IMG/VR virus record: IMGVR_UViG_3300015179_000040
Reading direction: 5' to 3' (one strand)
Length of the DNA: 8,405 bases
DNA from: a virus
Taxonomy: Duplodnaviria; Heunggongvirae; Uroviricota; Caudoviricetes
The translations under genes and the position numbers were made by a program. Positions 1 to 7,685 of this stretch are shown here, piece after piece. Below the pieces are notes generated by a model. The model worked only from the letters and a program-made list of their open reading frames with translations, searched no databases and had not been told where the DNA came from. Position 1 is the stretch's first letter, and every line of letters begins with the position of its first letter.

Positions 1-1131
1 TCAAATGACCAGTTTTTTCCACTCCTTACCGCGTACATCGTTGTAAATATCGGTCATTTTTTGATTCGAATGACCTAGCAAAATTTTGGTATCAACCCCC
101 TGCTCTCTGAACAATCGCTCTGATAAAGATCTCTGCTCATGGAAAGAGGGTGGGGTGCCATTAGCACGCCAGTTGTAATCCACAGAATCCCGGGCTTTTT
201 TAAATGCAACTGTTAATGTTGCTGGCTTAGCCATCCCGCCGCGCTTAGCTGTCCCTTTCGCGTGATGGTGGTGCAATAGCCACGGACTAAGAACACAATC
301 GCGGCAGGATGACACTACATCATCCAGGGTGAGATTTAATTTATCGCAACGCAGAGCCAGAGGGATGGCAATCCGGGTTCCTGTTTTTTGCTGTTCGACA
401 TGAAGATAACCATCCCGGATATCCGAAAATTGCATTTTGCAAATATCTGAAAGGCGCTGGCCTGTCATCAGTGCCAGCAGCATACCGCGCTGTAAAAAGT
501 AACCATCCTTTTCCGCTGCGTTATAAATCATCATCCACTCATCAAAAGTCAGTCGCTGTCTTGATATCCGCACCTGCGGTTTTTTTTCCTATTTTGCAGG
601 GTTAAAGCCTGGCGGGACATCGCCCGTTTGCTGAGCTTCCCGGAAAACATCGATCAGTACCTTCCTGAAAATTTGTCCCATTCTGTTATGTCCTCTGGCC
701 TTGTACTCTTCCAGTACTGATACCACATCTTTTACGGTTATGGCATCTAACGGTCTGGTGCCAAAACGTTCATCAAATACCCTGAGAGGGGCCGCTTTCT
801 GTTTCAGCGTGTTGAGTTTGATCTCGCCGTTTTCATATCTTTCCTGTTGAATTTTTCTGTAATTATTCAGAAAAATGGTAACGGTTGATGAACCGCCGGT
901 ATCACTAATAATTTTCTCCTGCAGACTGAGCATTTGTTCCATTTGCTGCCGGGCAAGACGGCTGTTCGCTTCTGCTGCAATAGTTTCTGCCAGTTTCTGG
1001 TCAATACTGCCGAGACCGTGATTTTTGCCTGTTATGGGATGCCTGTAACGCCAGTAAACTTTGTTATTTCTTTTGTCAAAATACGGAGATAATCCCGGAA
1101 CATTGGTTTTATATTTTCGCGGGCGCGCCAT
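1..1131 (-). pseudogene. int: Lambda-family tyrosine integrase, full-length reading frame (376 codons) interrupted by a single in-frame TAG at 589-591
   Basis: ORFs 589..1131 and 1..573 are in the same frame, separated only by TAG plus five sense codons (GAA AAA AAA CCG CAG) before a GTG. The N-terminal part resembles the lambda Int arm-binding/core-binding region (RNNKVYWRYRHPITGKNHGLG vs lambda RNNGYYCYRDPRTGKEFGLG). The C-terminal part carries the catalytic residues in lambda-like context (TGQRLSDI, VEQQKTG, FHEQRSL, LLGHSN, TDIYNDVRG, with Tyr nucleophile). Reading-frame stop TGA at 3..1. Identity from motif memory, no search run. Confidence 0.8.
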
Positions 1132-1421: not shown

Positions 1422-3896
1422 TTAAAAATCAGCCTGATTCGGGATCAGTTTTTGCCAGATAACTGAAACGTATTTTGCCTGGTAACGGGCGTCATCAAGT
1501 GCATTATGGCGCTCACCTTCGAATGGAATAGCCGTTCTGGCATCGAAGTCTATGGCTTTCCCCAGCTCAACGATTGTGCGTACATCGCGATCGTTGTAGT
1601 AACGCCACGGGCAGGGGATCCCCTGCCGTTCGTATGAACGGCGCAAAATCGTGTTGTCGAAGTTGGCTCCATTTCCCCAGACCTGAACAAAAAATTCACC
1701 GGAGTTTTCGTCGATAAATTCCCGCAATTGTAACAGTGCATCATCTAACGGGATTTCATCGGTCATAATGGCAGACTGCGCTTCACGTGATTGCTTCAGC
1801 CACCTTTTAATGACGTCACGATCAATGACTCCGCCAGCAGTTTCCAGATCGATAGTCTTACTAAATTCCGGTCCCATATCTCCGGTTTGCGGATCGAAAA
1901 ATATTGCACCTATTGAGATGATCGGGGCATCAGGATTTTTTCCCATGGTTTCAAGGTCGATCATTAGATGGTCACACGTCCTGCTGGTGGATGTGATTTC
2001 TTGATGACCGTTCACCTTAATTGAGTGATCTGCCGTCTCGCCAGTTTCATTATCGCTATCGTGATGCTGATTGCCGTCAGTGTTCTCCTTGTGTGGATGT
2101 TCAGCGCCTTCCATTTCCTCCGGATCATCTTCCTGAACTTCAACCTGATACTCTTCATCGAATGTTTCCTGGTATGTTGCGTCGCCCATCACCGCGCCAC
2201 AATCAGGGCAGTTGCCGCCGCCGGTCTGACCGCAGGCGGTGCAGACTTTTTCCACTTCCTGTTGCGCCACTGGTTCAGGCTGTTTCGTTTCTGGCTCGTT
2301 TTGTAACGCATTTGGGCTGTTTTGTTCCGCTTTCTGGCCGTTCTGTTCCGTTTCTTGCTGGTTCTGATTCACTGAATCGCGGGTTTCAATCCCCTTCACC
2401 CATTTCGGATCATTCGGGTCGCTAATCCCTGCAACAAATTCACCACGTGATACAGCAAGCAACTTATTGGCGTCAGGCTGGCTGATATTGGCTGCCTGCA
2501 TAATTTTGTTTACTTCGTCAGCGGTAACTTTTACCGGCTCTGGTTGTGCGATCGTGTCAGATGCACCAGTATTTTGTTGTGAACCTGAGTACGTGCCGTT
2601 TTTACGTGCGAAGTATTCCTCTTTTGTGATTTCCGTAGCTCCCAGGGCCAGTGCTTTTTCCAGACCAGAAAGTTTGTTTGCGCGACCGTATTTTTCGCCG
2701 TCCTTATCGGTGAAAAGGAAGTAGAACGGTCCCTCACGCTCTACAGATGGTTCGTCTTCCACTTCGCATTCGGTTTTTTCGTTGTCCGGCATTGCCGTTT
2801 CCACTGCATCAGTTTCTGGTACTGGTGACGGGAGAGTACCAGCTGTGCCCTGATTTGTTCCTTCGTCATCTTCAAACACGCCCTTGGTAGTCAGGTATTC
2901 AGTGATGTATTTGTTCAGTGCTACGGGATCTTTGTGAATGTCGATCGGACGCTCACGGACAAGGCCAAAAATAGTCTGACGGTCGTAGCGAACGGCATCG
3001 GGTTGTTTGCGCATTGATGCGGAAATGCGCTTCCAGTCTTCGCGATCTTTGTCGATAACTTCATTTTTTGCCCAGCGATGGATGCTGCCGTCAATGTTTC
3101 CGGTATCAATATCGCCAGGCCAGAGAGCGTAGGCCAGTTCTTCATCCAGCGTTTTCCATGTCTGCTTGTATTCGCGACAAATGGCGGCAGTGACTGGGTT
3201 GATTTTTCCTGCTGAGTTTTCAGTGTTCTGTTGATTGACTCTGGCGCTGGCGAGATCAACAACAGACGTGTATTTTCCAGTCTCTTTGCGCTCTGCGTCC
3301 TGCCGTTTTTTCCAGTTACGTAATTCAGCCTGAATTTCGGGCCATTTGGCACCCGGATTACATTTGTGTTTAACCCATCCGATAGCGAACAGTTTGCGTT
3401 CCGGATACATAGCGTTAATTTCAGGCGTTTTCATCAGTGCTTCAACGATATGCCCGTCAAAGGTAGCAACGTCTTCCTGCAGTAATTCCTGCGCGTCAAT
3501 CGCCATATCAACGGTGATGTTTTCACATGTACCGAACTTAACCAGGACCGCGTTCTGTACTTCAAGGGACAGCTTGTCAAAATTGACGTTCATCGGATCG
3601 GATTCTGGTTCGACCGGAATAAAGGAAGCGGATTCCTCATCCCAGCGGTTTTCCTGCATATATTCAGCATCCCAGGAATCGAGGGCAGGGCGGGGTATAC
3701 CGGGTTTATCCTCGCAGACAAGAAATTTATAAGCGCAGTCCTGAGCAGCCGGATAATGTTCCAGGAATTGCCAGTGAAATTTTGCGCGGGCGCGACGTTC
3801 ATCACCGGCTTCAATGGCAGTGGCTACAGCGACGGCACCTTCTTCCTTTATTGCCTGTTCGTCCGGAATGGCGGCGCAAATAAAGACTTTACTCAT
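1422..3896 (-). CDS. Large prophage exonuclease (824 aa): RecE-like N-terminal region, acidic linker with CxxC-x7-CxxC knuckle, C-terminal DnaQ-like DEDDh 3'-5' exonuclease domain
   Basis: Long uninterrupted ORF with SD (GAGGT) 9 nt upstream of the ATG. The C-terminus has the three DEDDh motifs (MIDLETMG; WGNGANFDN; HNALDDARYQAKY). The central motif LLAVSRGEFVAGISDPNDPKWVKGIETRD matches what I remember of the RecE (exonuclease VIII) N-terminal region. Position between ydfD-like and xis matches the ydfE slot of K-12 Qin. No search run. Confidence 0.8.
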   Translation of the reverse strand: MSKVFICAAIPDEQAIKEEGAVAVATAIEAGDERRARAKFHWQFLEHYPAAQDCAYKFLVCEDKPGIPRPALDSWDAEYMQENRWDEESASFIPVEPESDPMNVNFDKLSLEVQNAVLVKFGTCENITVDMAIDAQELLQEDVATFDGHIVEALMKTPEINAMYPERKLFAIGWVKHKCNPGAKWPEIQAELRNWKKRQDAERKETGKYTSVVDLASARVNQQNTENSAGKINPVTAAICREYKQTWKTLDEELAYALWPGDIDTGNIDGSIHRWAKNEVIDKDREDWKRISASMRKQPDAVRYDRQTIFGLVRERPIDIHKDPVALNKYITEYLTTKGVFEDDEGTNQGTAGTLPSPVPETDAVETAMPDNEKTECEVEDEPSVEREGPFYFLFTDKDGEKYGRANKLSGLEKALALGATEITKEEYFARKNGTYSGSQQNTGASDTIAQPEPVKVTADEVNKIMQAANISQPDANKLLAVSRGEFVAGISDPNDPKWVKGIETRDSVNQNQQETEQNGQKAEQNSPNALQNEPETKQPEPVAQQEVEKVCTACGQTGGGNCPDCGAVMGDATYQETFDEEYQVEVQEDDPEEMEGAEHPHKENTDGNQHHDSDNETGETADHSIKVNGHQEITSTSRTCDHLMIDLETMGKNPDAPIISIGAIFFDPQTGDMGPEFSKTIDLETAGGVIDRDVIKRWLKQSREAQSAIMTDEIPLDDALLQLREFIDENSGEFFVQVWGNGANFDNTILRRSYERQGIPCPWRYYNDRDVRTIVELGKAIDFDARTAIPFEGERHNALDDARYQAKYVSVIWQKLIPNQADF
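2277..2381 (-). repeat. Degenerate 21-bp (heptad) tandem repeats inside the exonuclease gene
   Basis: About 4-5 imperfect copies of a GTTYTGTTCCGYTTCTKGCYG-like unit. They encode Q/N/E-rich heptads NQQETEQ / NGQKAEQ / NSPNALQ / NEPETKQ / PEPVAQQ in the linker preceding the zinc knuckle. Confidence 0.45.
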
Positions 3897-3975
3897 TTTG
3901 TTTTACCTCATTACAGATTTAAGGGTGAACAAATCCCTGCCATTGCTGGCATATAAAAATGAAACTGGATATTAA

Positions 3976-4179
3976 TTACGGCGCTGTTTTTAATCCTGCC
4001 GGGATTTCGTTATTGTCCATGTGAATAACTTTATCGACCGGATAACAGTTGCCGGGAATTTTCTGTTCCGCTGCGGCAGCCATGCATTCTTTCATTGAGT
4101 TGTACATGCCGGTGATTGCATCAAGCGACTCACCAGTATTGAGATGTACAGTCAGAATGAGTACGAATAATGTGTTCAT
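3976..4179 (-). CDS. ydfD: YdfD-like small membrane protein (DUF1482-type; reported lysis protein in Qin)
   Basis: 67 aa from the ATG at 4179..4177 (MNTLFVLILTVHLNTGESLDAITGMYNSMKECMAAAAEQKIPGNCYPVDKV...). Hydrophobic N-terminus. Its ATG overlaps the dicB TGA stop (ATGA), indicating translational coupling. Sits in the same position relative to dicB as K-12 ydfD. The ORF track starts it at an upstream GTG (4185). Confidence 0.7.
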   Translation of the reverse strand: MNTLFVLILTVHLNTGESLDAITGMYNSMKECMAAAAEQKIPGNCYPVDKVIHMDNNEIPAGLKTAP

Positions 4180-4364
4180 CGCCACTCTCCGAAAATACCG
4201 AGTTTAAGAAGGGCAATTCTGGAGAGTATGGAATTGTCATTCAGCAGGTAGGGTTCATATTTTCTCATATTGATTGCATCCTCGGTGAAATCCCTGTTAC
4301 TGAGCAGAACACCAATATTAAAGCACCCGTCAGACGTATTAACGTTTGGTAGTGACGTTTCCAT
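4176..4364 (-). CDS. dicB: DicB-family cell division inhibitor (MinC-activating, FtsZ-ring inhibitor)
   Basis: 62-aa ORF METSLPNVNTSDGCFNIGVLLSNRDFTEDAINMRKYE... matches my memory of the E. coli DicB N-terminal signature (LPNVNTSEGCFEIGV...FTEDAIN.RK). SD GAGGA 8 nt upstream, overlapping the rha stop codon. Confidence 0.85.
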   Translation of the reverse strand: METSLPNVNTSDGCFNIGVLLSNRDFTEDAINMRKYEPYLLNDNSILSRIALLKLGIFGEWR

Positions 4365-4374
4365 TATCGCGTCC

Positions 4375-4932
4375 TCAACAATGAATTTTTAGCAATTGCT
4401 CCACAGTCATATTTTTAATTGCGCTCCGGTTTACAAGAGTCCATCCTTGTTTCTCCAGATAAAACCGGAAGGTATCCAGGGTGCAGACCATTGCGCCGTC
4501 AGGAACGGTTTCAGTGAATTTGATATTGCCGTGTTCGTCGAGACGGATAACCAGGGTGCGTCCGTCCCCGTGAATCATTTTGTCGGGAGACGGGGCGTTA
4601 TTCTGGCGCAGTTCTGCTTCCATGCGGTCGAACTCAGCAATGTATGCCTCTTTAAATGCAGCGGCTTTTTTGCCAGTGAAGCCCATCACCAGGAAAACGA
4701 AGCCGTTTTTGGTGATTTGGTACATTGGGAGTTTGCGCCCGGTTGAGTCGGTGTATTCGCTCGACACAAAATTGTGCTCAGTGAATTTTGCTGAACAGTC
4801 CAGATTGCGAATTTTATCCAACACTCGTTCGTGGCGTTTGCCAAAGAACTCGGCGATCGCAACAGACGTAGTGACAGCGCGACCATTTTCGATGGTTACG
4901 TCAGGGTGAGAAAGGGTAAGGATAGTAGCCAT
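4375..4932 (-). CDS. rha: Rha-family phage regulatory protein (Phage_pRha domain; antirepressor-like)
   Basis: Start chosen at the ATG 4932..4930 (MATILTLSHPDVTIENGRAVTTSVAIAEFFGKRHERVLDKIRNL...YQITKNGFVFLVMGFTGKKAAAFKEAYIAEFDRME), preceded by GGAGG at 8-nt spacing. These motifs are typical of the Rha family. The in-frame upstream extension to 5229 in the ORF track was rejected (see noticed_but_rejected). Confidence 0.75.
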   Translation of the reverse strand: MATILTLSHPDVTIENGRAVTTSVAIAEFFGKRHERVLDKIRNLDCSAKFTEHNFVSSEYTDSTGRKLPMYQITKNGFVFLVMGFTGKKAAAFKEAYIAEFDRMEAELRQNNAPSPDKMIHGDGRTLVIRLDEHGNIKFTETVPDGAMVCTLDTFRFYLEKQGWTLVNRSAIKNMTVEQLLKIHC

Positions 4933-5097
4933 GATGGCAGCCTCCGCGATGAATTTGATTAACTCACCACCGAGGTTTTCCACGACCATAAGGGTGGTGA
5001 GACGTACAGGGGTGGAAATACCGGTCATCACGGAACCCGGCCAGCCTTGCGGCTGCCCTGCACGCCCCACCATAATGCGAATGTGGCTGTGCTTAAC

Positions 5098-5128
5098 GCA
5101 TAAAAAAACCGCCTGAGCGCGGTTATGC
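5098..5128 (-). terminator. Rho-independent terminator upstream of rha, within the operon
   Basis: On the minus strand: GCAUAACCGC-GCUCAG-GCGGUUUUUUUAUGC. A short GC stem with 6-nt loop followed directly by a 7-U tract. The plus strand has no U tract after the stem. Confidence 0.5.
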
Positions 5129-5410
5129 GCCGTGAATGATTTCGGGTTTCCACGCCCGGCACCCGTTTTATGAGGTGCAGGTGCACTATAATTCCACCCG
5201 TTCTGGTTTTCAATAGCTACATTCAACATTTTCTCTACCTTTCATCACCGAAGTGAACTTTGTTGATGCGGTGCCTGGTGCCTCCAGGTGACGTTAACCA
5301 GTTAACAATTAACGTCGGATACAGAGCATTCCCGTTACGCCCGTAAAAGACCGCTTGTTTTAACTGTTCCGCGTGCGCTGAGCCGCATTCACCGCATCAC
5401 AAAATTCACT

Positions 5411-5472
5411 TTAAAAGGGGCGGGTATCATGGGAAAAACAAAACGGATACCCGCCAAAAGGTAATCAACATG
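5411..5472 (-). ncRNA. dicF: DicF-like small RNA (divergent homolog) ending in an intrinsic terminator
   Basis: Minus-strand sequence UGUUGAUUACCUUUUGGCGGGUAUCCGUUUUGUUUUUCCCAUGAUACCCGCCCCUUUUAA has a 10-bp stem GGCGGGUAUC/GAUACCCGCC followed by CCUUUU. It resembles, from memory, E. coli DicF (…UUUGGCGGUAUCAGUUUUACUCC…GCCGCCCUUUUU). Synteny fits: downstream of ydfC-like, upstream of dicB. Ends are approximate; not confirmed by a covariance model. Confidence 0.45.
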
Positions 5473-5795
5473 GGTTGTTGCAGCGGGGTTGTCACTCAGG
5501 CGTATGGTCAACCTGACAACCCGGTGGACATTTGCGAGGAACGGAGAACCCCCGCCATACTTACCGCCGCGCCATTTCGCGGAGTGCCACAACCGGAAGC
5601 GCACGGTCGACGAAAATTTAACGACAGGCTATCTATGAACCAGCAACCTCGCCGTGCGCTTTCGCGTTATGCTCTGACTTTTCAGAGAAATATCCTTTCA
5701 GTAAACTGTCAGTGCCGGATGCTCACCCGTGTCCGGCGCACACACTCCACCTCACCCGTGGAGAACTCCTTAATTACCAACCCTCAGGAGGGTGA

Positions 5796-6029
5796 ATGTT
5801 AAAATCAACGCTTATTGCTAAATGCCTTTATCAAAATCGCATGGTAAGCAGCATTTCAATAGGCGAGTCTGCAGTTAAAAGTATTTTCGAAGAGTACTTT
5901 CCCGGGCATGATTTTAATAAATGGAATACCAAATTACCGCCAGCAGTTTCAACGCGTATTCTGAAAGCAACTGAAAGAGCAAGTACAATTCGCGTTAACT
6001 ATTTCATTAAAGATTTGTGGGATCTTTGA
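5796..6029 (+). CDS. Hypothetical 77-aa protein, opposite strand to the operon, convergent with and overlapping the 3' end of the 135-aa ORF
   Basis: ORF with AGGAGG-type SD 4-5 nt before the ATG at 5796. Protein-like composition (MLKSTLIAKCLYQNRMVSSISIGESAVKSIFEEYFPGHDFNKWNTKLPP...). No homolog recognised. Could be a chance ORF in an AT-rich stretch. Confidence 0.3.
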   Translation: MLKSTLIAKCLYQNRMVSSISIGESAVKSIFEEYFPGHDFNKWNTKLPPAVSTRILKATERASTIRVNYFIKDLWDL

Positions 6030-6414: not shown

Positions 6415-6436
6415 TATTAGCCTCGTTGGTTAACCA

Positions 6437-6655
6437 TTAACGTGGGTATGTAATCATTCTGGCAATGCTTAATGCCGCTGCTTTTTCCAGATTGGTGATA
6501 TCCTGCTCCAGAGCGGACAGATTTTCAGCCTGCTTAGCCCTGGCTTCATTGGCCCATTTCAGGTCCTGCGCAGCCTTAATTTTCTGGTGCATCCACTCAT
6601 AAAGTTCATCATCGGTATAGTCTGGCGCGATGATGACGGGTTCTCGTTTCTGCAT
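6437..6655 (-). CDS. ydfC: YdfC-like small protein (DUF1317-type)
   Basis: 72-aa ORF MQKREPVIIAPDYTDDELYEWMHQKIKAAQDLKWANEARAKQAENLSALEQ... with SD GAGGAA 7 nt upstream. Matches my memory of Qin YdfC in length and sequence. Confidence 0.75.
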   Translation of the reverse strand: MQKREPVIIAPDYTDDELYEWMHQKIKAAQDLKWANEARAKQAENLSALEQDITNLEKAAALSIARMITYPR

Positions 6656-7075: not shown

Positions 7076-7167
7076 TGGCGTATGATATTTTTGATTTGGT
7101 AACTATGTAAATGTTTTTTCAAGGGAAAAATATTAGTTATACAGCTGATTTGCAGAAGTTATGGCAC

Positions 7168-7197
7168 AAAAAAACCGACTAAGACGTCGGTTTTTTT
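7168..7197. terminator. Bidirectional rho-independent terminator downstream of the repressor gene
   Basis: A7-CCGAC-UAAGAC-GUCGG-U7: GC stem flanked by complementary A and U tracts, so it can terminate on either strand. Lies 27 nt after the repressor stop. Confidence 0.6.
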
Positions 7198-7223
7198 GTT
7201 GTGGATGGGGTAGTGAGCGGTGG

Positions 7224-7685
7224 CTACTGGTTACGTTTCTTTAGTGCCAGCATGTTCTCGAAGGCTTCCTCGTAGAGCTTGTTTAGTCCACGTAGCTGGT
7301 TAAGGAGTTTGGCTTTTTCTGACGCAGGTAGAATCTCGAAGAGGTTAAGTAACTCTGCCTGTTCTTCATTGACCAGCCTCCATCCTTTGCCTGAAAAGTT
7401 ATCATCATAAGTATCTGATGATCTTACATAATTCATTAAGTCTTTAAGGTCTTCTCGAATGTCCTCTGGTTTTACCTTTAACAGAGCCGCAAATTTTAGC
7501 GCAGCGTCGGTATTTACCGGTATCTTGCCGTTCAGATACTGGCTAACGGTGCCTTGAGATTCGAATCCCAACAACTCAGCCGCCAGCTCTTGAGTCAGCT
7601 TCAGCTCTTTTTTTCTTGCATTCCATGCGGCTTTTAAATTCTTGCTCGCTTCTGGAGTTGCAATCACTTCGCGTGTTTTTTTCAT
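7224..7685 (-). CDS. DicA-like HTH (XRE-family) prophage repressor, no LexA/S24 autocleavage domain
   Basis: 153-aa ORF with HTH LTQELAAELLGFESQGTVSQYLNG and C-terminal LNLFEILPASEKAKLLNQLRGLNKLYEEAFENMLALKK, resembling the DicA C-terminus (LELFNALPESEQ...FNKLFEELLKARQ) from memory. Divergent from the Cro-like gene. No recognisable SD before the ATG. Confidence 0.75.
   Translation of the reverse strand: MKKTREVIATPEASKNLKAAWNARKKELKLTQELAAELLGFESQGTVSQYLNGKIPVNTDAALKFAALLKVKPEDIREDLKDLMNYVRSSDTYDDNFSGKGWRLVNEEQAELLNLFEILPASEKAKLLNQLRGLNKLYEEAFENMLALKKRNQ

What the first reader, a model, noticed from the sequence alone, without database searches (positions are those of the whole stretch)
5098..5412. 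About 300-nt untranslated, highly structured interval between two terminators, containing a GTTAAC-centred palindrome
Between the DicF-like terminator and a second intrinsic terminator (5098-5128) there is no convincing ORF. The element GACGTTAA-CCAGTTAACAA-TTAACGTC (5290-5316) has perfect 8-bp inverted arms and three GTTAAC-like hexamers at 8-bp spacing, and is followed by a CCTGG/CCAGG hairpin. It could be a protein-binding site or a second small RNA; expression of rha-dicB-ydfD would require readthrough of two terminators.
Basis: seen in the sequence. Interest (0 to 1): 0.4.

Follow-up and report, generated by a model that had tools for sequence, protein, structure and literature searches.

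The report
Prophage RNA leader: STnc100-like fold plus IsrK
The interval holds two RNA elements read from the minus strand of an E. coli prophage, a conserved pseudoknotted RNA fold whose fourth hairpin is the GTTAAC palindrome and a copy of the known small RNA IsrK; it is mostly ordinary, but the fold is unannotated in most E. coli genomes.

Summary
The sequence features are real, but the palindrome is an RNA hairpin, not a DNA site. On the minus strand, 5412-5251 is the dicF-dicB intergenic region of the K-12 Qin prophage.

It folds into a pseudoknotted five-helix domain. This is a divergent, sub-threshold relative of the prophage sRNA family STnc100/PasD (35.6 bits against a cut-off of 47).
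- The palindrome is helix P4.
- Its loop pairs with 5366-5360.
- CCTGG/CCAGG is helix P5.
- All helices covary across about 90 phage variants.

A 21-23 bp closing helix, specific to the dicF type, contains the position where papers citing Faubladier 1990 place an RNase III-made 3' end of DicF in K-12. The most likely role is processing that separates the upstream hairpin RNA from the downstream message.

The rest of the interval, 5213-5102, is a promoter plus an IsrK homologue (67.7 bits against 50). The "second terminator" belongs to IsrK. It is followed by a C4 antisense RNA (81.9 against 45) whose loops cover the Rha ribosome-binding site, as in the phage P1 immI and Gifsy-1 isrK systems.

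A DNA-binding site is not supported. Novelty is modest: the fold's link to STnc100, its pseudoknot, and its unannotated presence in 4403 of 5426 complete E. coli genomes.

The parts
5413..5455 (-). Hairpin in the position of DicF: stem 5455-5446 / 5428-5419, then CCUUUU (5418-5413). It is a terminator-like 3' module of the upstream small RNA and a variant of K-12 DicF.
   Evidence: The alignment to K-12 ydfC-dicF-dicB shows a 9-nt deletion and a different loop. There is no Rfam DicF match at E <= 10. The U tract has only 4 U.
5251..5412 (-). STnc100/PasD-like pseudoknotted RNA domain; it is the dicF-dicB intergenic element of K-12 Qin.
   Evidence: Rfam STnc100 scores 35.6 bits (cut-off 47), E = 5.6e-5, model positions 22-154. 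The palindrome and P5 stretch is identical to K-12. Folding gives -68.5 kcal/mol, z = -5.98. Covariation score is 0.394 against 0.159 shuffled and 0.10-0.16 for slid controls. RNAalifold on 58 dicF-type variants recovers P1, P2, P4 and P5.
5390..5412 (-). 5' strand of the extended closing helix P1 (AAAGUGAAUUUUGUGAUGCGGUG). It pairs with 5273-5251. The RNase III-dependent 3' end is predicted near 5399/5398.
   Evidence: The duplex is 21-23 bp and is kept in all dicF-type variants, with compensatory double changes in L082, L072 and L219. A 72-nt DicF made by RNase III in K-12 (PMC5069750 and PMC9438474, both citing Faubladier 1990) maps to L002 about 3954-3959, inside this strand. The cut position in the window is inferred.
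5371..5386 (-). P2 hairpin: 5 bp, a one-base bulge, and a U-N-N-G-C loop.
   Evidence: 98.9% of cells are paired, and 3 of 5 pairs change on both sides (CCCCC/GGGGG against GCGGC/GCCGC against CUUUC/GAAAG). The loop and the preceding GGUGAAU were not part of the search pattern, yet they are invariant or nearly so (one GGUUAAU).
5360..5366 (-). 5' strand of the pseudoknot (CAGUUAA). It pairs with the P4 loop at 5305-5299.
   Evidence: A complementary strand sits just after P2 in nearly all variants, although its sequence differs. Cognate pairing averages 5.64 Watson-Crick bp against 3.47 when permuted, with 0 of 20000 permutations as high, over 28 distinct loops.
5317..5357 (-). P3 region: hypervariable hairpin(s), replaced wholesale between relatives.
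   Evidence: Alignments.
5290..5316 (-). The loop strand UUAACUG (5305-5299) forms the pseudoknot.
   Evidence: Inverted repeat I20. There are 28 distinct P4 hairpins of 7-10 bp at the same place, always ending on the C of CACC. The majority form is GGCG...CGTC with a G-U pair (86 against 17 instances).
5274..5288 (-). P5 hairpin CCUGG-AGGCA-CCAGG, followed directly by the 3' strand of P1.
   Evidence: The pattern CACCNGGAGGCACCNGGCAC left both N free. All 139 instances have G..C (98) or T..A (41). 100% of cells are paired.
5251..5273 (-). 3' strand of extended P1 (CACCGCAUCAACAAAGUUCACUU). The RNase III cut is predicted near 5261/5260.
   Evidence: The cut position is inferred from the K-12 geometry.
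5185..5213 (-). Promoter-like site for isrK: TTGAAA (5213-5208), 17 nt, TATAGT (5190-5185). The transcription start is expected at about 5178.
   Evidence: 10 of 12 matches to the consensus. Both hexamers are invariant in 31 unique relatives. The Rfam isrK model starts at 5178.
5102..5178 (-). IsrK homologue carrying the a1 (5153-5147) and b1 (5139-5130) sites. Its terminator stem is 5124-5107, followed by a U tract.
   Evidence: Rfam isrK scores 67.7 bits against a cut-off of 50, over the full model. c4-a1b1 scores 25.7 bits over 5191-5139. Terminator scan.
4990..5077 (-). C4-type antisense RNA with loops b' (5035-5025) and a' (5018-5012).
   Evidence: Rfam C4 scores 81.9 bits against a cut-off of 45, over the full model.
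4930..4989 (-). Rha leader: a2 (4983-4977), b2 (4952-4942) overlapping the Shine-Dalgarno GGAGG (4945-4941), and the ATG at 4932.
   Evidence: b' pairs with b2 over 11 bp and a' with a2 over 7 bp. There are 11 specificity classes; cognate b'-b2 pairing averages 11.6 bp against 6.1 non-cognate.
4375..4932 (-). Rha-family regulatory protein, the gene controlled by the module. It is followed by dicB (4176-4364) and a DUF1482 gene (3976-4185).
   Evidence: Pfam Phage_pRha E = 1e-30, DicB E = 1e-32, DUF1482 E = 2e-19.

Best explanation
The interval is non-coding leader RNA of a Qin/Rac-type prophage early-left operon, transcribed leftwards on the minus strand. It consists of two adjacent RNA modules.

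Module 1 (5412-5251)
- It is the same element that separates dicF from dicB in E. coli K-12.
- Transcripts that read through the DicF-position hairpin fold into a five-helix, pseudoknotted domain. This domain shares its core with the prophage sRNAs STnc100 and PasD.
Its central UUAACUG pairs with CAGUUAA 55 nt upstream. CCUGG/CCAGG is helix P5.
- In the dicF type the closing helix is lengthened to 21-23 bp.
- Most likely (inferred by homology with K-12, not shown here) RNase III cuts this helix. That would create the long 3' end of the upstream small RNA, free the downstream message with a short leader, and perhaps release the roughly 135-nt core as a discrete RNA.
- What the conserved core itself does is unknown.

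Module 2 (5213-4930)
- It is a phage P1 immI-like control unit for the Rha regulator.
- A constitutive-looking promoter makes IsrK (5178-5102), which ends at the 'second terminator'.
- Read-through RNA contains a C4 antisense RNA. Its two loops pair with sites a2 and b2 over the Rha ribosome-binding site and block translation.
- IsrK carries decoy copies (a1 and b1) of the same sites. As in Gifsy-1, it should counteract the block in trans.
For: Identity and conservation
- The region is homologous to K-12 ydfC-dicF-dicB. The palindrome and P5 are identical, and the isrK-C4-rha block is an insertion relative to K-12.
- The dicF-type element is present over at least 80% of its length in 4403 of 5426 complete E. 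coli genomes, and most listed records annotate nothing under it.
- Rfam matches: isrK 67.7 against 50, C4 81.9 against 45, STnc100 35.6 against 47. Canonical copies score 57-132 bits.

Structure
- z = -5.98.
- P1 is 88% paired, P2 99% and P5 100%. The covariation score is 0.394 against 0.159 shuffled and 0.10-0.16 for slid controls.
- All 139 instances have complementary bases at the free P5 positions.
- There are 28 different P4 hairpins at the same place.
- The pseudoknot is supported by 0 of 20000 permutations reaching the observed value.
- RNAalifold run independently recovers P1, P2, P4 and P5.

Strand
- The G-U pairs in P4 and P1 work only for the minus-strand RNA.

RNase III
- The 21-23 bp helix is conserved with compensatory changes.
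- PMC5069750 and PMC9438474, both citing Faubladier 1990, report an RNase III-made 72-nt DicF. Its 3' end maps inside this helix in K-12.

IsrK/C4 module
- There are 11 co-varying specificity classes.
- The promoter hexamers are invariant.
- The downstream gene encodes a Rha-family protein.
- The mechanism is taken from PMC4825925 (Gifsy-1). The P1 immI model rests on my own knowledge of that literature.
Against: - No transcript data exist for this window.
- The RNase III cut is known only second-hand, and only for K-12. Faubladier 1990 is not held. A 2023 study of the operon describes only the RNase III site upstream of dicF.
- The upstream hairpin here is not DicF by Rfam, and its U tract is short. 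Termination and read-through ratios are therefore unknown.
- The STnc100 match is below Rfam's threshold. My set of homologues was collected with an exact 3' core pattern, so the invariance of that core is partly an ascertainment effect.
- RNase III processing explains only the dicF-type extension. It does not explain why the pseudoknotted core is conserved in sRNA genes with short P1 helices.
- For IsrK, the Gifsy-1 model (activation) and the P1 model (C4 repression) have not been reconciled experimentally.
Confidence: 0.7

Rival explanations
1. The palindrome is a DNA operator bound by a dimeric phage protein (Rha, the cI-like repressor or a DicA-like protein) that regulates transcription through the region.
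For: The window has a perfect 8-bp inverted repeat with repeated GTTAAC. A second ACGTTAATNGTTAAC lies at 6429-6443, where 0.07 matches are expected by chance. That pattern was chosen after seeing both sites.
Against: - The commonest form in relatives, GGCG...CGTC, breaks the DNA symmetry but keeps an RNA G-U pair.
- The arms change by compensatory substitutions, and other lineages carry unrelated stems at the same place.
- The central hexamer covaries with an upstream strand.
- The second site reads ...ATAGCTAAC / ...GTAGCTAAT in NCTC86 and K-12.
- An 8-nt inverted repeat is common in this window (28 found).
Confidence: 0.04
2. 5251-5412 is an independent small-RNA gene of the STnc100/PasD kind. 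It would have its own promoter and act in trans through Hfq.
For: Canonical family members are discrete units of promoter, fold and terminator. Up to four sit in tandem between Q and the lysis genes. PasD is an Hfq-dependent sRNA confirmed by Northern blot (PMC8550237).
Against: - No promoter-like site is found upstream. The space is filled by the DicF-position hairpin, which abuts P1.
- No terminator follows any of the 41 T..A-type (mostly dicF-type) copies counted.
- The Rfam match lacks model positions 1-21 and 155-206, which include the terminator and Hfq module.
- In most copies dicB or kilR starts 33-38 nt after the core.
Confidence: 0.08
3. The conserved pseudoknotted core is a cis-acting sensor or effector. 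Examples are a ligand- or protein-binding aptamer, or an RNA that modifies RNA polymerase as HK022 put does. It would set read-through or translation of the toxic genes that follow (dicB, kilR, rha).
For: - The architecture is complex: a closing helix, a pseudoknot, and junctions and loops that are invariant or nearly so (GGUGAAU, the P2 loop). This resembles aptamers.
- It always sits in long operons that must pass terminators.
- The dicF type precedes division-inhibitor genes.
- This prophage type has no obvious N-like gene in the window.
Against: - HK022 has no copy of the core within 3 mismatches and no STnc100-like Rfam match.
- Canonical copies are followed by terminators, and the one experimentally studied relative, PasD, is a discrete sRNA on Northern blots (PMC8550237). 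This argues against antitermination by the fold.
- I saw no conserved alternative pairing with the terminators, but that was inspected by eye only.
- No ligand or partner is indicated.
Confidence: 0.12
4. 5098-5229 is protein-coding: the N-terminal Ash-like extension of a 284-aa Rha protein, as RefSeq annotates the equivalent ORF in strain NCTC86.
For: The ORF from ATG 5229 is open into rha. PGAP annotates the same-length ORF in strain NCTC86 as the Rha CDS. Residues 14-109 hit Pfam Phage_ASH at 60.8 bits against a cut-off of 26. The frame stays open in most of the 80 relatives. In Gifsy-1 a short ORF (orf45) over the C4-like region is translated (PMC4825925).
Against: - Variable sites show no third-position excess: 10/9/8 in isrK and 11/10/10 in C4.
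- Variation is concentrated in the RNA recognition loops and covaries three ways.
- 2 of 80 loci stop after 32 codons.
- ATG 5229 lies upstream of the isrK start.
- The Rha domain starts at residue 120, 20 residues after the internal ATG at 4932, which has a GGAGG Shine-Dalgarno.
Confidence: 0.08

Closest known systems
dicF-dicB intergenic region of the E. coli K-12 Qin prophage, with the RNase III site that gives the 72-nt DicF
   Same: It is homologous DNA. The P1 strands, P2, pseudoknot strands, P4 and P5 are the same or nearly so. It occupies the same position after the DicF-type hairpin, with the same 21-22 bp helix at the reported cleavage position.
   Different: - In K-12, dicB starts 33 nt after the core. 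Here a 0.87-kb isrK-C4-rha block is inserted first.
- The P3 region differs.
- The upstream small RNA is not DicF by Rfam.
- I found no description of the fold itself in the papers held.
Rfam RF02076 STnc100 and the PasD sRNAs of pathogenic E. coli
   Same: It has the same helices, which correspond to the stems of the Rfam consensus structure, and the same conserved GGUGAAU and CACCNGGAGGCACCNGGCACC motifs.
   Different: - It scores below the gathering threshold and matches only model positions 22-154.
- It has no promoter or terminator of its own.
- Its closing helix is extended.
- It lies in the early-left operon rather than between Q and the lysis genes.
- The pseudoknot is not in Rfam's structure line, and the word 'pseudoknot' does not occur in the 2026 PasD/STnc100 preprint.
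isrK-orf45-anrP locus of the Salmonella Gifsy-1 prophage (PMC4825925)
   Same: There is a full-length IsrK match with promoter and terminator, followed by a C4-like RNA (STnc1160 in Salmonella) and a regulator gene. Read-through of the IsrK terminator is needed to reach the gene.
   Different: - In Gifsy-1 the locus lies downstream of a Q-like antiterminator gene. Here it lies between a DicF-position hairpin and dicB.
- The ORF over C4 is fused in frame to rha instead of ending before it.
- Whether AnrP and this Rha protein are homologous was not tested.
Phage P1/P7 immI region (c4 antisense RNA, icd, ant); Rfam RF01695 and RF03163
   Same: The order is a1/b1, then C4 with loops a'/b', then a2/b2 over the ribosome-binding site of the controlled gene. 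Many immunity specificities arise from covarying loops.
   Different: - The controlled gene encodes a Rha-family protein rather than P1 Ant.
- a1/b1 are carried on a separately terminated sRNA.
- RNase P processing and Rho-dependent polarity were not testable here.
HK022 put antiterminator RNAs (PMC9378689)
   Same: Both are cis-encoded structured RNAs in a lambdoid early operon that lacks an N-type protein. Both have two adjacent stem-loops separated by one base (P4 and P5).
   Different: There is no sequence or Rfam-model similarity in HK022. put is about 70 nt, sits just downstream of promoters and suppresses termination. STnc100-type copies are followed by terminators, and their relative PasD accumulates as a discrete sRNA (PMC8550237).

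Membership tests
IsrK (Rfam RF01394) | Covariance-model score at or above the gathering threshold over the full model | tested here: met
   67.7 bits against 50, model positions 1-77 of 77, window 5178-5102 minus strand
IsrK (Rfam RF01394) | Own promoter and Rho-independent terminator, giving a short RNA, with read-through into a downstream regulator gene | tested here: inconclusive
   Consensus-like promoter TTGAAA-17-TATAGT, invariant in 31 relatives. Terminator hairpin plus U7. Rha gene downstream. No transcript data.
IsrK (Rfam RF01394) | Hfq binding and trans-activation of translation of the read-through mRNA | not testable with these tools
   Known only for Gifsy-1 (PMC4825925)
C4 antisense RNA / P1 immI-type control (RF01695, RF03163) | Covariance-model score at or above the gathering threshold | tested here: met
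   C4 scores 81.9 against 45 over the full model. The c4-a1b1 model scores only 25.7 against 46.7, but the same stretch is matched by isrK.
C4 antisense RNA / P1 immI-type control (RF01695, RF03163) | Loops a' and b' complementary to a2/b2 at the ribosome-binding site of the controlled gene, and to upstream a1/b1 | tested here: met
   b'-b2 pairs over 11 bp and covers GGAGG. a'-a2 and a'-a1 each pair over 7 bp. In 11 specificity classes, cognate pairing exceeds non-cognate.
C4 antisense RNA / P1 immI-type control (RF01695, RF03163) | Maturation by RNase P, and translational block with polarity on the downstream gene | not testable with these tools
   Requires experiments
STnc100 (Rfam RF02076) / PasD | Covariance-model score at or above the gathering threshold | tested here: not met
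   35.6 bits against 47, E = 5.6e-5, model positions 22-154 of 206. The K-12 copy is also below threshold, whereas canonical copies score 57-132 bits.
STnc100 (Rfam RF02076) / PasD | Core helices P1, P2, P4 and P5 and the conserved junction motifs | tested here: met
   I therefore file it as a divergent relative of the fold, not as a member of the Rfam family.
STnc100 (Rfam RF02076) / PasD | Stand-alone sRNA gene with its own promoter and intrinsic terminator | tested here: not met
   No promoter-like site upstream. No terminator after any of the 41 T..A-type (mostly dicF-type) copies counted.
DicF (Rfam RF00039) | Covariance-model match for the hairpin RNA at 5413-5470 | tested here: not met
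   No match at E <= 1 in the window, or at E <= 10 in 5380-5520. K-12 DicF scores 76.7. Only position and flanks are shared.
RNase III processing site | Roughly 20 bp or more of continuous double helix, conserved | tested here: met
   21-23 bp, -26 to -36 kcal/mol, in all intact dicF-type variants, with compensatory changes
RNase III processing site | RNase III-dependent ends within the helix | not testable with these tools
   Reported for K-12 as a 72-nt DicF (PMC5069750 and PMC9438474, citing Faubladier 1990). The mapping to the helix is my inference.
DNA operator / protein-binding palindrome | Half-site sequence and dyad symmetry conserved as DNA, and repeated at regulatory sites | tested here: not met
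   The majority form is asymmetric as DNA. The arms covary. The second site is not conserved.
HK022 put antiterminator RNA | Similarity to putL or putR | tested here: not met
   HK022 has no core motif within 3 mismatches and no STnc100-like match at E <= 1.

The most novel reading that the evidence does not exclude
The pseudoknotted core is a discrete functional RNA module of unknown activity. It consists of GGUGAAU, the P2 hairpin with a U-N-N-G-C loop, the J2/3-L4 pseudoknot, and the P5 hairpin with GGAGGCACC. It could be a binding site for a protein or small molecule, or a nuclease-resistant fold. Lambdoid prophages would reuse it in two settings. One is as the 5' body of the sRNAs STnc100 and PasD next to the lysis genes. 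The other is as the leader in front of the division inhibitors dicB and kilR, where it would gate their expression.
Probability: 0.15. Interest if true: 0.65.

Novelty: new member of a known kind. Interest (0 to 1): 0.35.

Why it matters
- The dicBF operon is a much-studied model of prophage-encoded toxicity. Yet the roughly 160 nt between dicF and dicB carry no annotation in most E. coli records listed.
- Recognising this stretch as a conserved pseudoknotted fold gives a structural basis for the old RNase III observation.
- It links DicF biogenesis to the STnc100/PasD sRNAs of pathogenic E. coli.
- It points to a testable control step in front of the division inhibitors DicB and KilR.
- The adjacent IsrK-C4-Rha unit shows that P1-type RNA immunity modules, with at least 11 specificities, are inserted into this operon.
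- The same unit shows that a Pfam family and RefSeq CDS starts may be reading conserved RNA as protein.
- None of this overturns current understanding.

Tried and rejected
- HK022 put homology. I fetched the genome and found no core motif within 3 mismatches and no Rfam STnc100-like match. Rejected as a relative and kept only as a loose analogy.
- tRNA-like element. The helix order resembles a class II tRNA, but ARAGORN finds nothing and Rfam gives no tRNA match at E <= 1. Not pursued.
- DicF identity of the upstream hairpin. No match even at E <= 10.
- A repeated GTTAAC DNA site. A second exact ACGTTAATNGTTAAC lies at 6429-6443, but it is not conserved in K-12 or NCTC86. GTTAAC itself is not enriched: 4 found against 1.6 expected, with 17 of 200 shuffles as high.
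- Protein coding of 5098-5229. Judged unlikely.
- MAFFT-based pair counts for P4 and the pseudoknot were poor (57% and 64% paired), because loop lengths differ. I replaced them with anchored folding and a permutation test.
- Primary sources. Faubladier 1990 is not held. The RNase III cleavage-map supplements are not held. A 2026 preprint on CsrA that mentions PasD is not held.
- A riboswitch-like swap between P2 and the terminator. It appears in some canonical copies (L004, L013) but not in others (L101). This was checked by eye only, and I gave it no weight.
Full report
**Setting**

The window is the early-left arm of a lambdoid prophage of E. coli, with its genes on the minus strand:
- a split integrase and an excisionase;
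- an 824-aa exonuclease;
- a DUF1482 gene, dicB and a Rha-family gene;
- further right, ydfA/B/C-like small genes, a cI-like repressor (7224-7685) and a divergent cro-like gene.

The same gene order is annotated in E. coli NCTC86. The 168-nt core of the finding is 100% identical to the chromosome of strain 266917_2.

**Checking the observation**

The terminator-like hairpin at 5124-5107 with its T run is present. So are the 8-nt perfect inverted repeat at 5290-5297 / 5309-5316 and the CCTGG/CCAGG hairpin at 5274-5288. Both halves of the interval fold much better than shuffled sequence, with z about -6 and -5.

- Only two exact GTTAAC hexamers exist, at 5293 and 5301. The third is TTAAC, 7 bp on.
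- An 8-nt inverted repeat alone is unremarkable, since the window has 28.
- The upstream hairpin is in DicF's place but is not DicF by Rfam.
- A 284-aa ORF covers 5098-5229, and the same-length ORF is the annotated Rha CDS in RefSeq strain NCTC86.

**Left half: IsrK and C4**

An Rfam scan gave full-length matches above the curated thresholds:
- isrK at 5178-5102, 67.7 bits against 50;
- C4 antisense RNA at 5077-4990, 81.9 bits against 45.

The a1/b1-target model overlaps isrK. A promoter-like site, TTGAAA-17-TATAGT, ends 7 nt before the isrK start. It is invariant in 31 distinct relatives.

The C4 loops pair as follows:
- UUCCGUGAUGA pairs over 11 bp with the leader sequence that includes the GGAGG Shine-Dalgarno, 8 nt before the ATG at 4932.
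- UUUCCAC pairs with GUGGAAA in both the leader and IsrK.

Across 80 IMG/VR relatives, variation is concentrated in these loops and their targets. It covaries three ways. There are 11 specificity classes, and cognate b'-b2 pairing averages 11.6 bp against 6.1 bp for non-cognate pairs. This is the logic of the phage P1/P7 immI region as I know it from the literature. It also matches the Gifsy-1 isrK-orf45-anrP locus, where short IsrK acts in trans on the read-through mRNA (PMC4825925).

**Is 5098-5229 coding?**

Residues 14-109 of the long ORF match Pfam Phage_ASH. Several results argue against translation:
- The stretch shows no third-position excess of variable sites.
- Two of 80 relatives stop after 32 codons.
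- The ATG lies upstream of the isrK start.
- The Rha domain begins 20 residues after the internal ATG.

I read this stretch as RNA. Translation of a short ORF over C4, as shown in Gifsy-1, remains possible.

**Right half: the palindrome region**

Aligned with K-12, the minus strand from 5800 to about 5250 is the ydfC-dicF-dicB intergenic DNA of the Qin prophage. The palindrome and the CCTGG hairpin are identical there and lie just before the dicB ribosome-binding site. The isrK-C4-rha block is an insertion relative to K-12.

Rfam gives a sub-threshold match to STnc100: 35.6 bits against 47, E = 5.6e-5, model positions 22-154. STnc100 is a prophage sRNA of unknown function, recently linked to the Hfq-dependent PasD sRNAs (preprint 10.64898/2026.05.13.724894; PMC8550237).

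**The fold**

I searched IMG/VR with the pattern CACCNGGAGGCACCNGGCAC. It returned at least 120 loci and 139 instances, 88 of them unique. They share one architecture:
- a closing helix P1 (NNNGGUG / CACCNNN), followed by AAU;
- hairpin P2, with 5 bp, one bulged base and a U-N-N-G-C loop;
- a strand that pairs with the loop of P4;
- a hypervariable P3;
- hairpin P4, 7-10 bp, always ending on the C of CACC;
- one unpaired base, then hairpin P5 (CCNGG-AGGCA-CCNGG);
- the 3' strand of P1 directly after P5.

The evidence for each part:
- The two free positions in the search pattern are G..C (98 instances) or T..A (41), and never another combination.
- On a MAFFT alignment of 38 variants, P1 is 88% paired, P2 99% and P5 100%, with changes on both sides. 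The covariation score is 0.394, against 0.159 for shuffles and 0.10-0.16 for slid controls.
- 28 different P4 hairpins occupy the same place.
- The P4-loop pairing averages 5.64 Watson-Crick bp in cognate pairs and 3.47 after permutation, with 0 of 20000 permutations as high.
- RNAalifold on 58 dicF-type variants independently recovers P1, P2, P4 and P5.

Its loop UUAACUG (5305-5299) pairs with CAGUUAA (5366-5360). The repeated 'GTTAAC' is thus a by-product of a stem plus a pseudoknot.

The commonest dicF-type stem is GGCG...CGTC. It holds a G-U pair that exists only in minus-strand RNA and spoils the DNA symmetry. The window's perfect form is the minority, 17 instances against 86.

One caveat applies. 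The invariance of the 3' core partly reflects my search pattern. The 5' GGUGAAU and the P2 loop were not in the pattern.

**Two contexts**

Copies that pass Rfam's STnc100 threshold (57-132 bits) lie between the Q antiterminator gene and the lysis genes, often beside tRNA genes. Each has a promoter-like AT-rich stretch, and many have their own terminator. Up to four occur in tandem.

The dicF type is different:
- It is present over at least 80% of its length in 4403 of 5426 complete E. coli genomes, at a median of 2 copies, and most listed records annotate nothing under it.
- It also occurs in other Escherichia species, Shigella and Citrobacter.
- It has no promoter or terminator of its own and follows the DicF-type hairpin directly.
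- It is followed 33 nt later by dicB, 38 nt later by a KilR-like 73-aa gene, or, as here, by isrK-C4-rha.

**Mechanism**

Only the dicF type extends P1 to 21-23 bp. The extension is kept through compensatory double changes. [quoted passage not shown] In K-12 that end falls at about 3954-3959 of locus L002, in the middle of the 5' strand of extended P1 (3941-3963).

I therefore propose that extended P1 is that RNase III site. By the usual two-strand cut it would also leave a short unstructured leader on the downstream message and release the core. In window coordinates the cuts would be near 5399/5398 and 5261/5260. This step is inferred. The primary paper is not held, and a 2023 study describes only the RNase III site upstream of dicF. 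The role of the conserved core remains unexplained.

**Alternatives**

- A DNA operator is not supported.
- An independent sRNA gene is unlikely, because promoter and terminator are missing.
- A put-like or aptamer-like function cannot be excluded, but nothing positive supports it. HK022 lacks the motif, canonical copies are followed by terminators, and their relative PasD is seen as a discrete sRNA (PMC8550237).

**Verdict**

The finding resolves into known kinds of element. The IsrK/C4 unit is a plain member of its families. The palindrome region is a known piece of K-12 DNA.

What appears to be new is threefold. The region is a divergent relative of the STnc100/PasD fold. That fold carries a well-supported pseudoknot, which is absent from Rfam's structure line, and the word does not occur in the 2026 preprint. 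Its extended closing helix coincides with the reported RNase III end. Interest is moderate to low.

Noticed in passing
window 4933-5229 (minus strand): The equivalent 284-aa ORF in RefSeq strain NCTC86 is annotated as Rha from its first ATG. In the window, ORF residues 14-109, which overlie the isrK and C4 RNAs, match Pfam Phage_ASH (PF10554, 60.8 bits). There is no codon-position bias, and 2 of 80 relatives stop after 32 codons. The Pfam family may partly be a translation of conserved RNA, or the region may be dual-coding.
   Followed up: partly
window 5413-5470 (minus strand): The small RNA in DicF's position has a 9-nt deletion and a different loop compared with K-12 DicF. It gets no Rfam DicF match even at E <= 10, and its U tract is only 4 U. 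Other variants of this hairpin occur in IMG/VR and genome loci (L011, L204, L206, L219). These may be DicF-like sRNAs with other targets.
   Followed up: partly
window 4990-5178 and loci L124-L203: At least 11 specificity classes of the IsrK/C4/leader recognition loops exist among E. coli prophages. They combine 3 a-type and about 9 b-type loop variants. This suggests a set of mutually non-cross-reacting RNA immunity modules.
   Followed up: partly
loci L013 (about 2265-3380) and L101 (4349-5513, 8357-8555): Up to four or five STnc100 copies lie in tandem between the Q gene and the lysis genes, next to tRNA genes. Several have a promoter-like stretch and a terminator of their own. Their P4 and pseudoknot sequences differ from copy to copy.
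   Followed up: partly
window 5470-5800 (minus strand): A roughly 330-nt non-coding leader upstream of the DicF-position hairpin is nearly identical to K-12. It should contain the RNase III site that gives the 190-nt DicF precursor (10.1101/2023.04.14.536235). An ORF on the opposite strand at 5470-5802 looks spurious.
   Followed up: no
window 1-1131 (minus strand): The integrase reading frame is split into two ORFs (589-1131 and 1-573) around a T run near 575-590. NCTC86 has a single 1131-nt gene. This could be a frameshifted integrase, which would make the prophage defective.
   Followed up: no
window 7166-7199: A perfect 14-bp inverted repeat flanked by A and T runs forms a bidirectional terminator. 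It lies between the cI-like repressor gene and the start of the early-left operon. It matches Rfam STnc370 weakly (30.5 bits against 54).
   Followed up: no
window 6429-6443: A second exact copy of ACGTTAATNGTTAAC lies at the end of the ydfC-like gene. It is not conserved in K-12 or NCTC86, so it is probably coincidental or a recombination scar.
   Followed up: yes
window 1422-3896 (minus strand): The 824-aa 'exonuclease' in the place of RecE carries a C-terminal Rv2179c-like 3'-5' exoribonuclease domain (Pfam E = 3e-63). No family matched the long N-terminal part at E <= 0.001.
   Followed up: no
loci L011, L022, L052, L068, L208, L216: In Rac-type prophages the same fold sits 38 nt upstream of a KilR-like 73-aa division inhibitor, after a DicF-like hairpin. 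The hairpin-fold-toxin arrangement is thus shared by the two K-12 division-inhibitor loci.
   Followed up: partly
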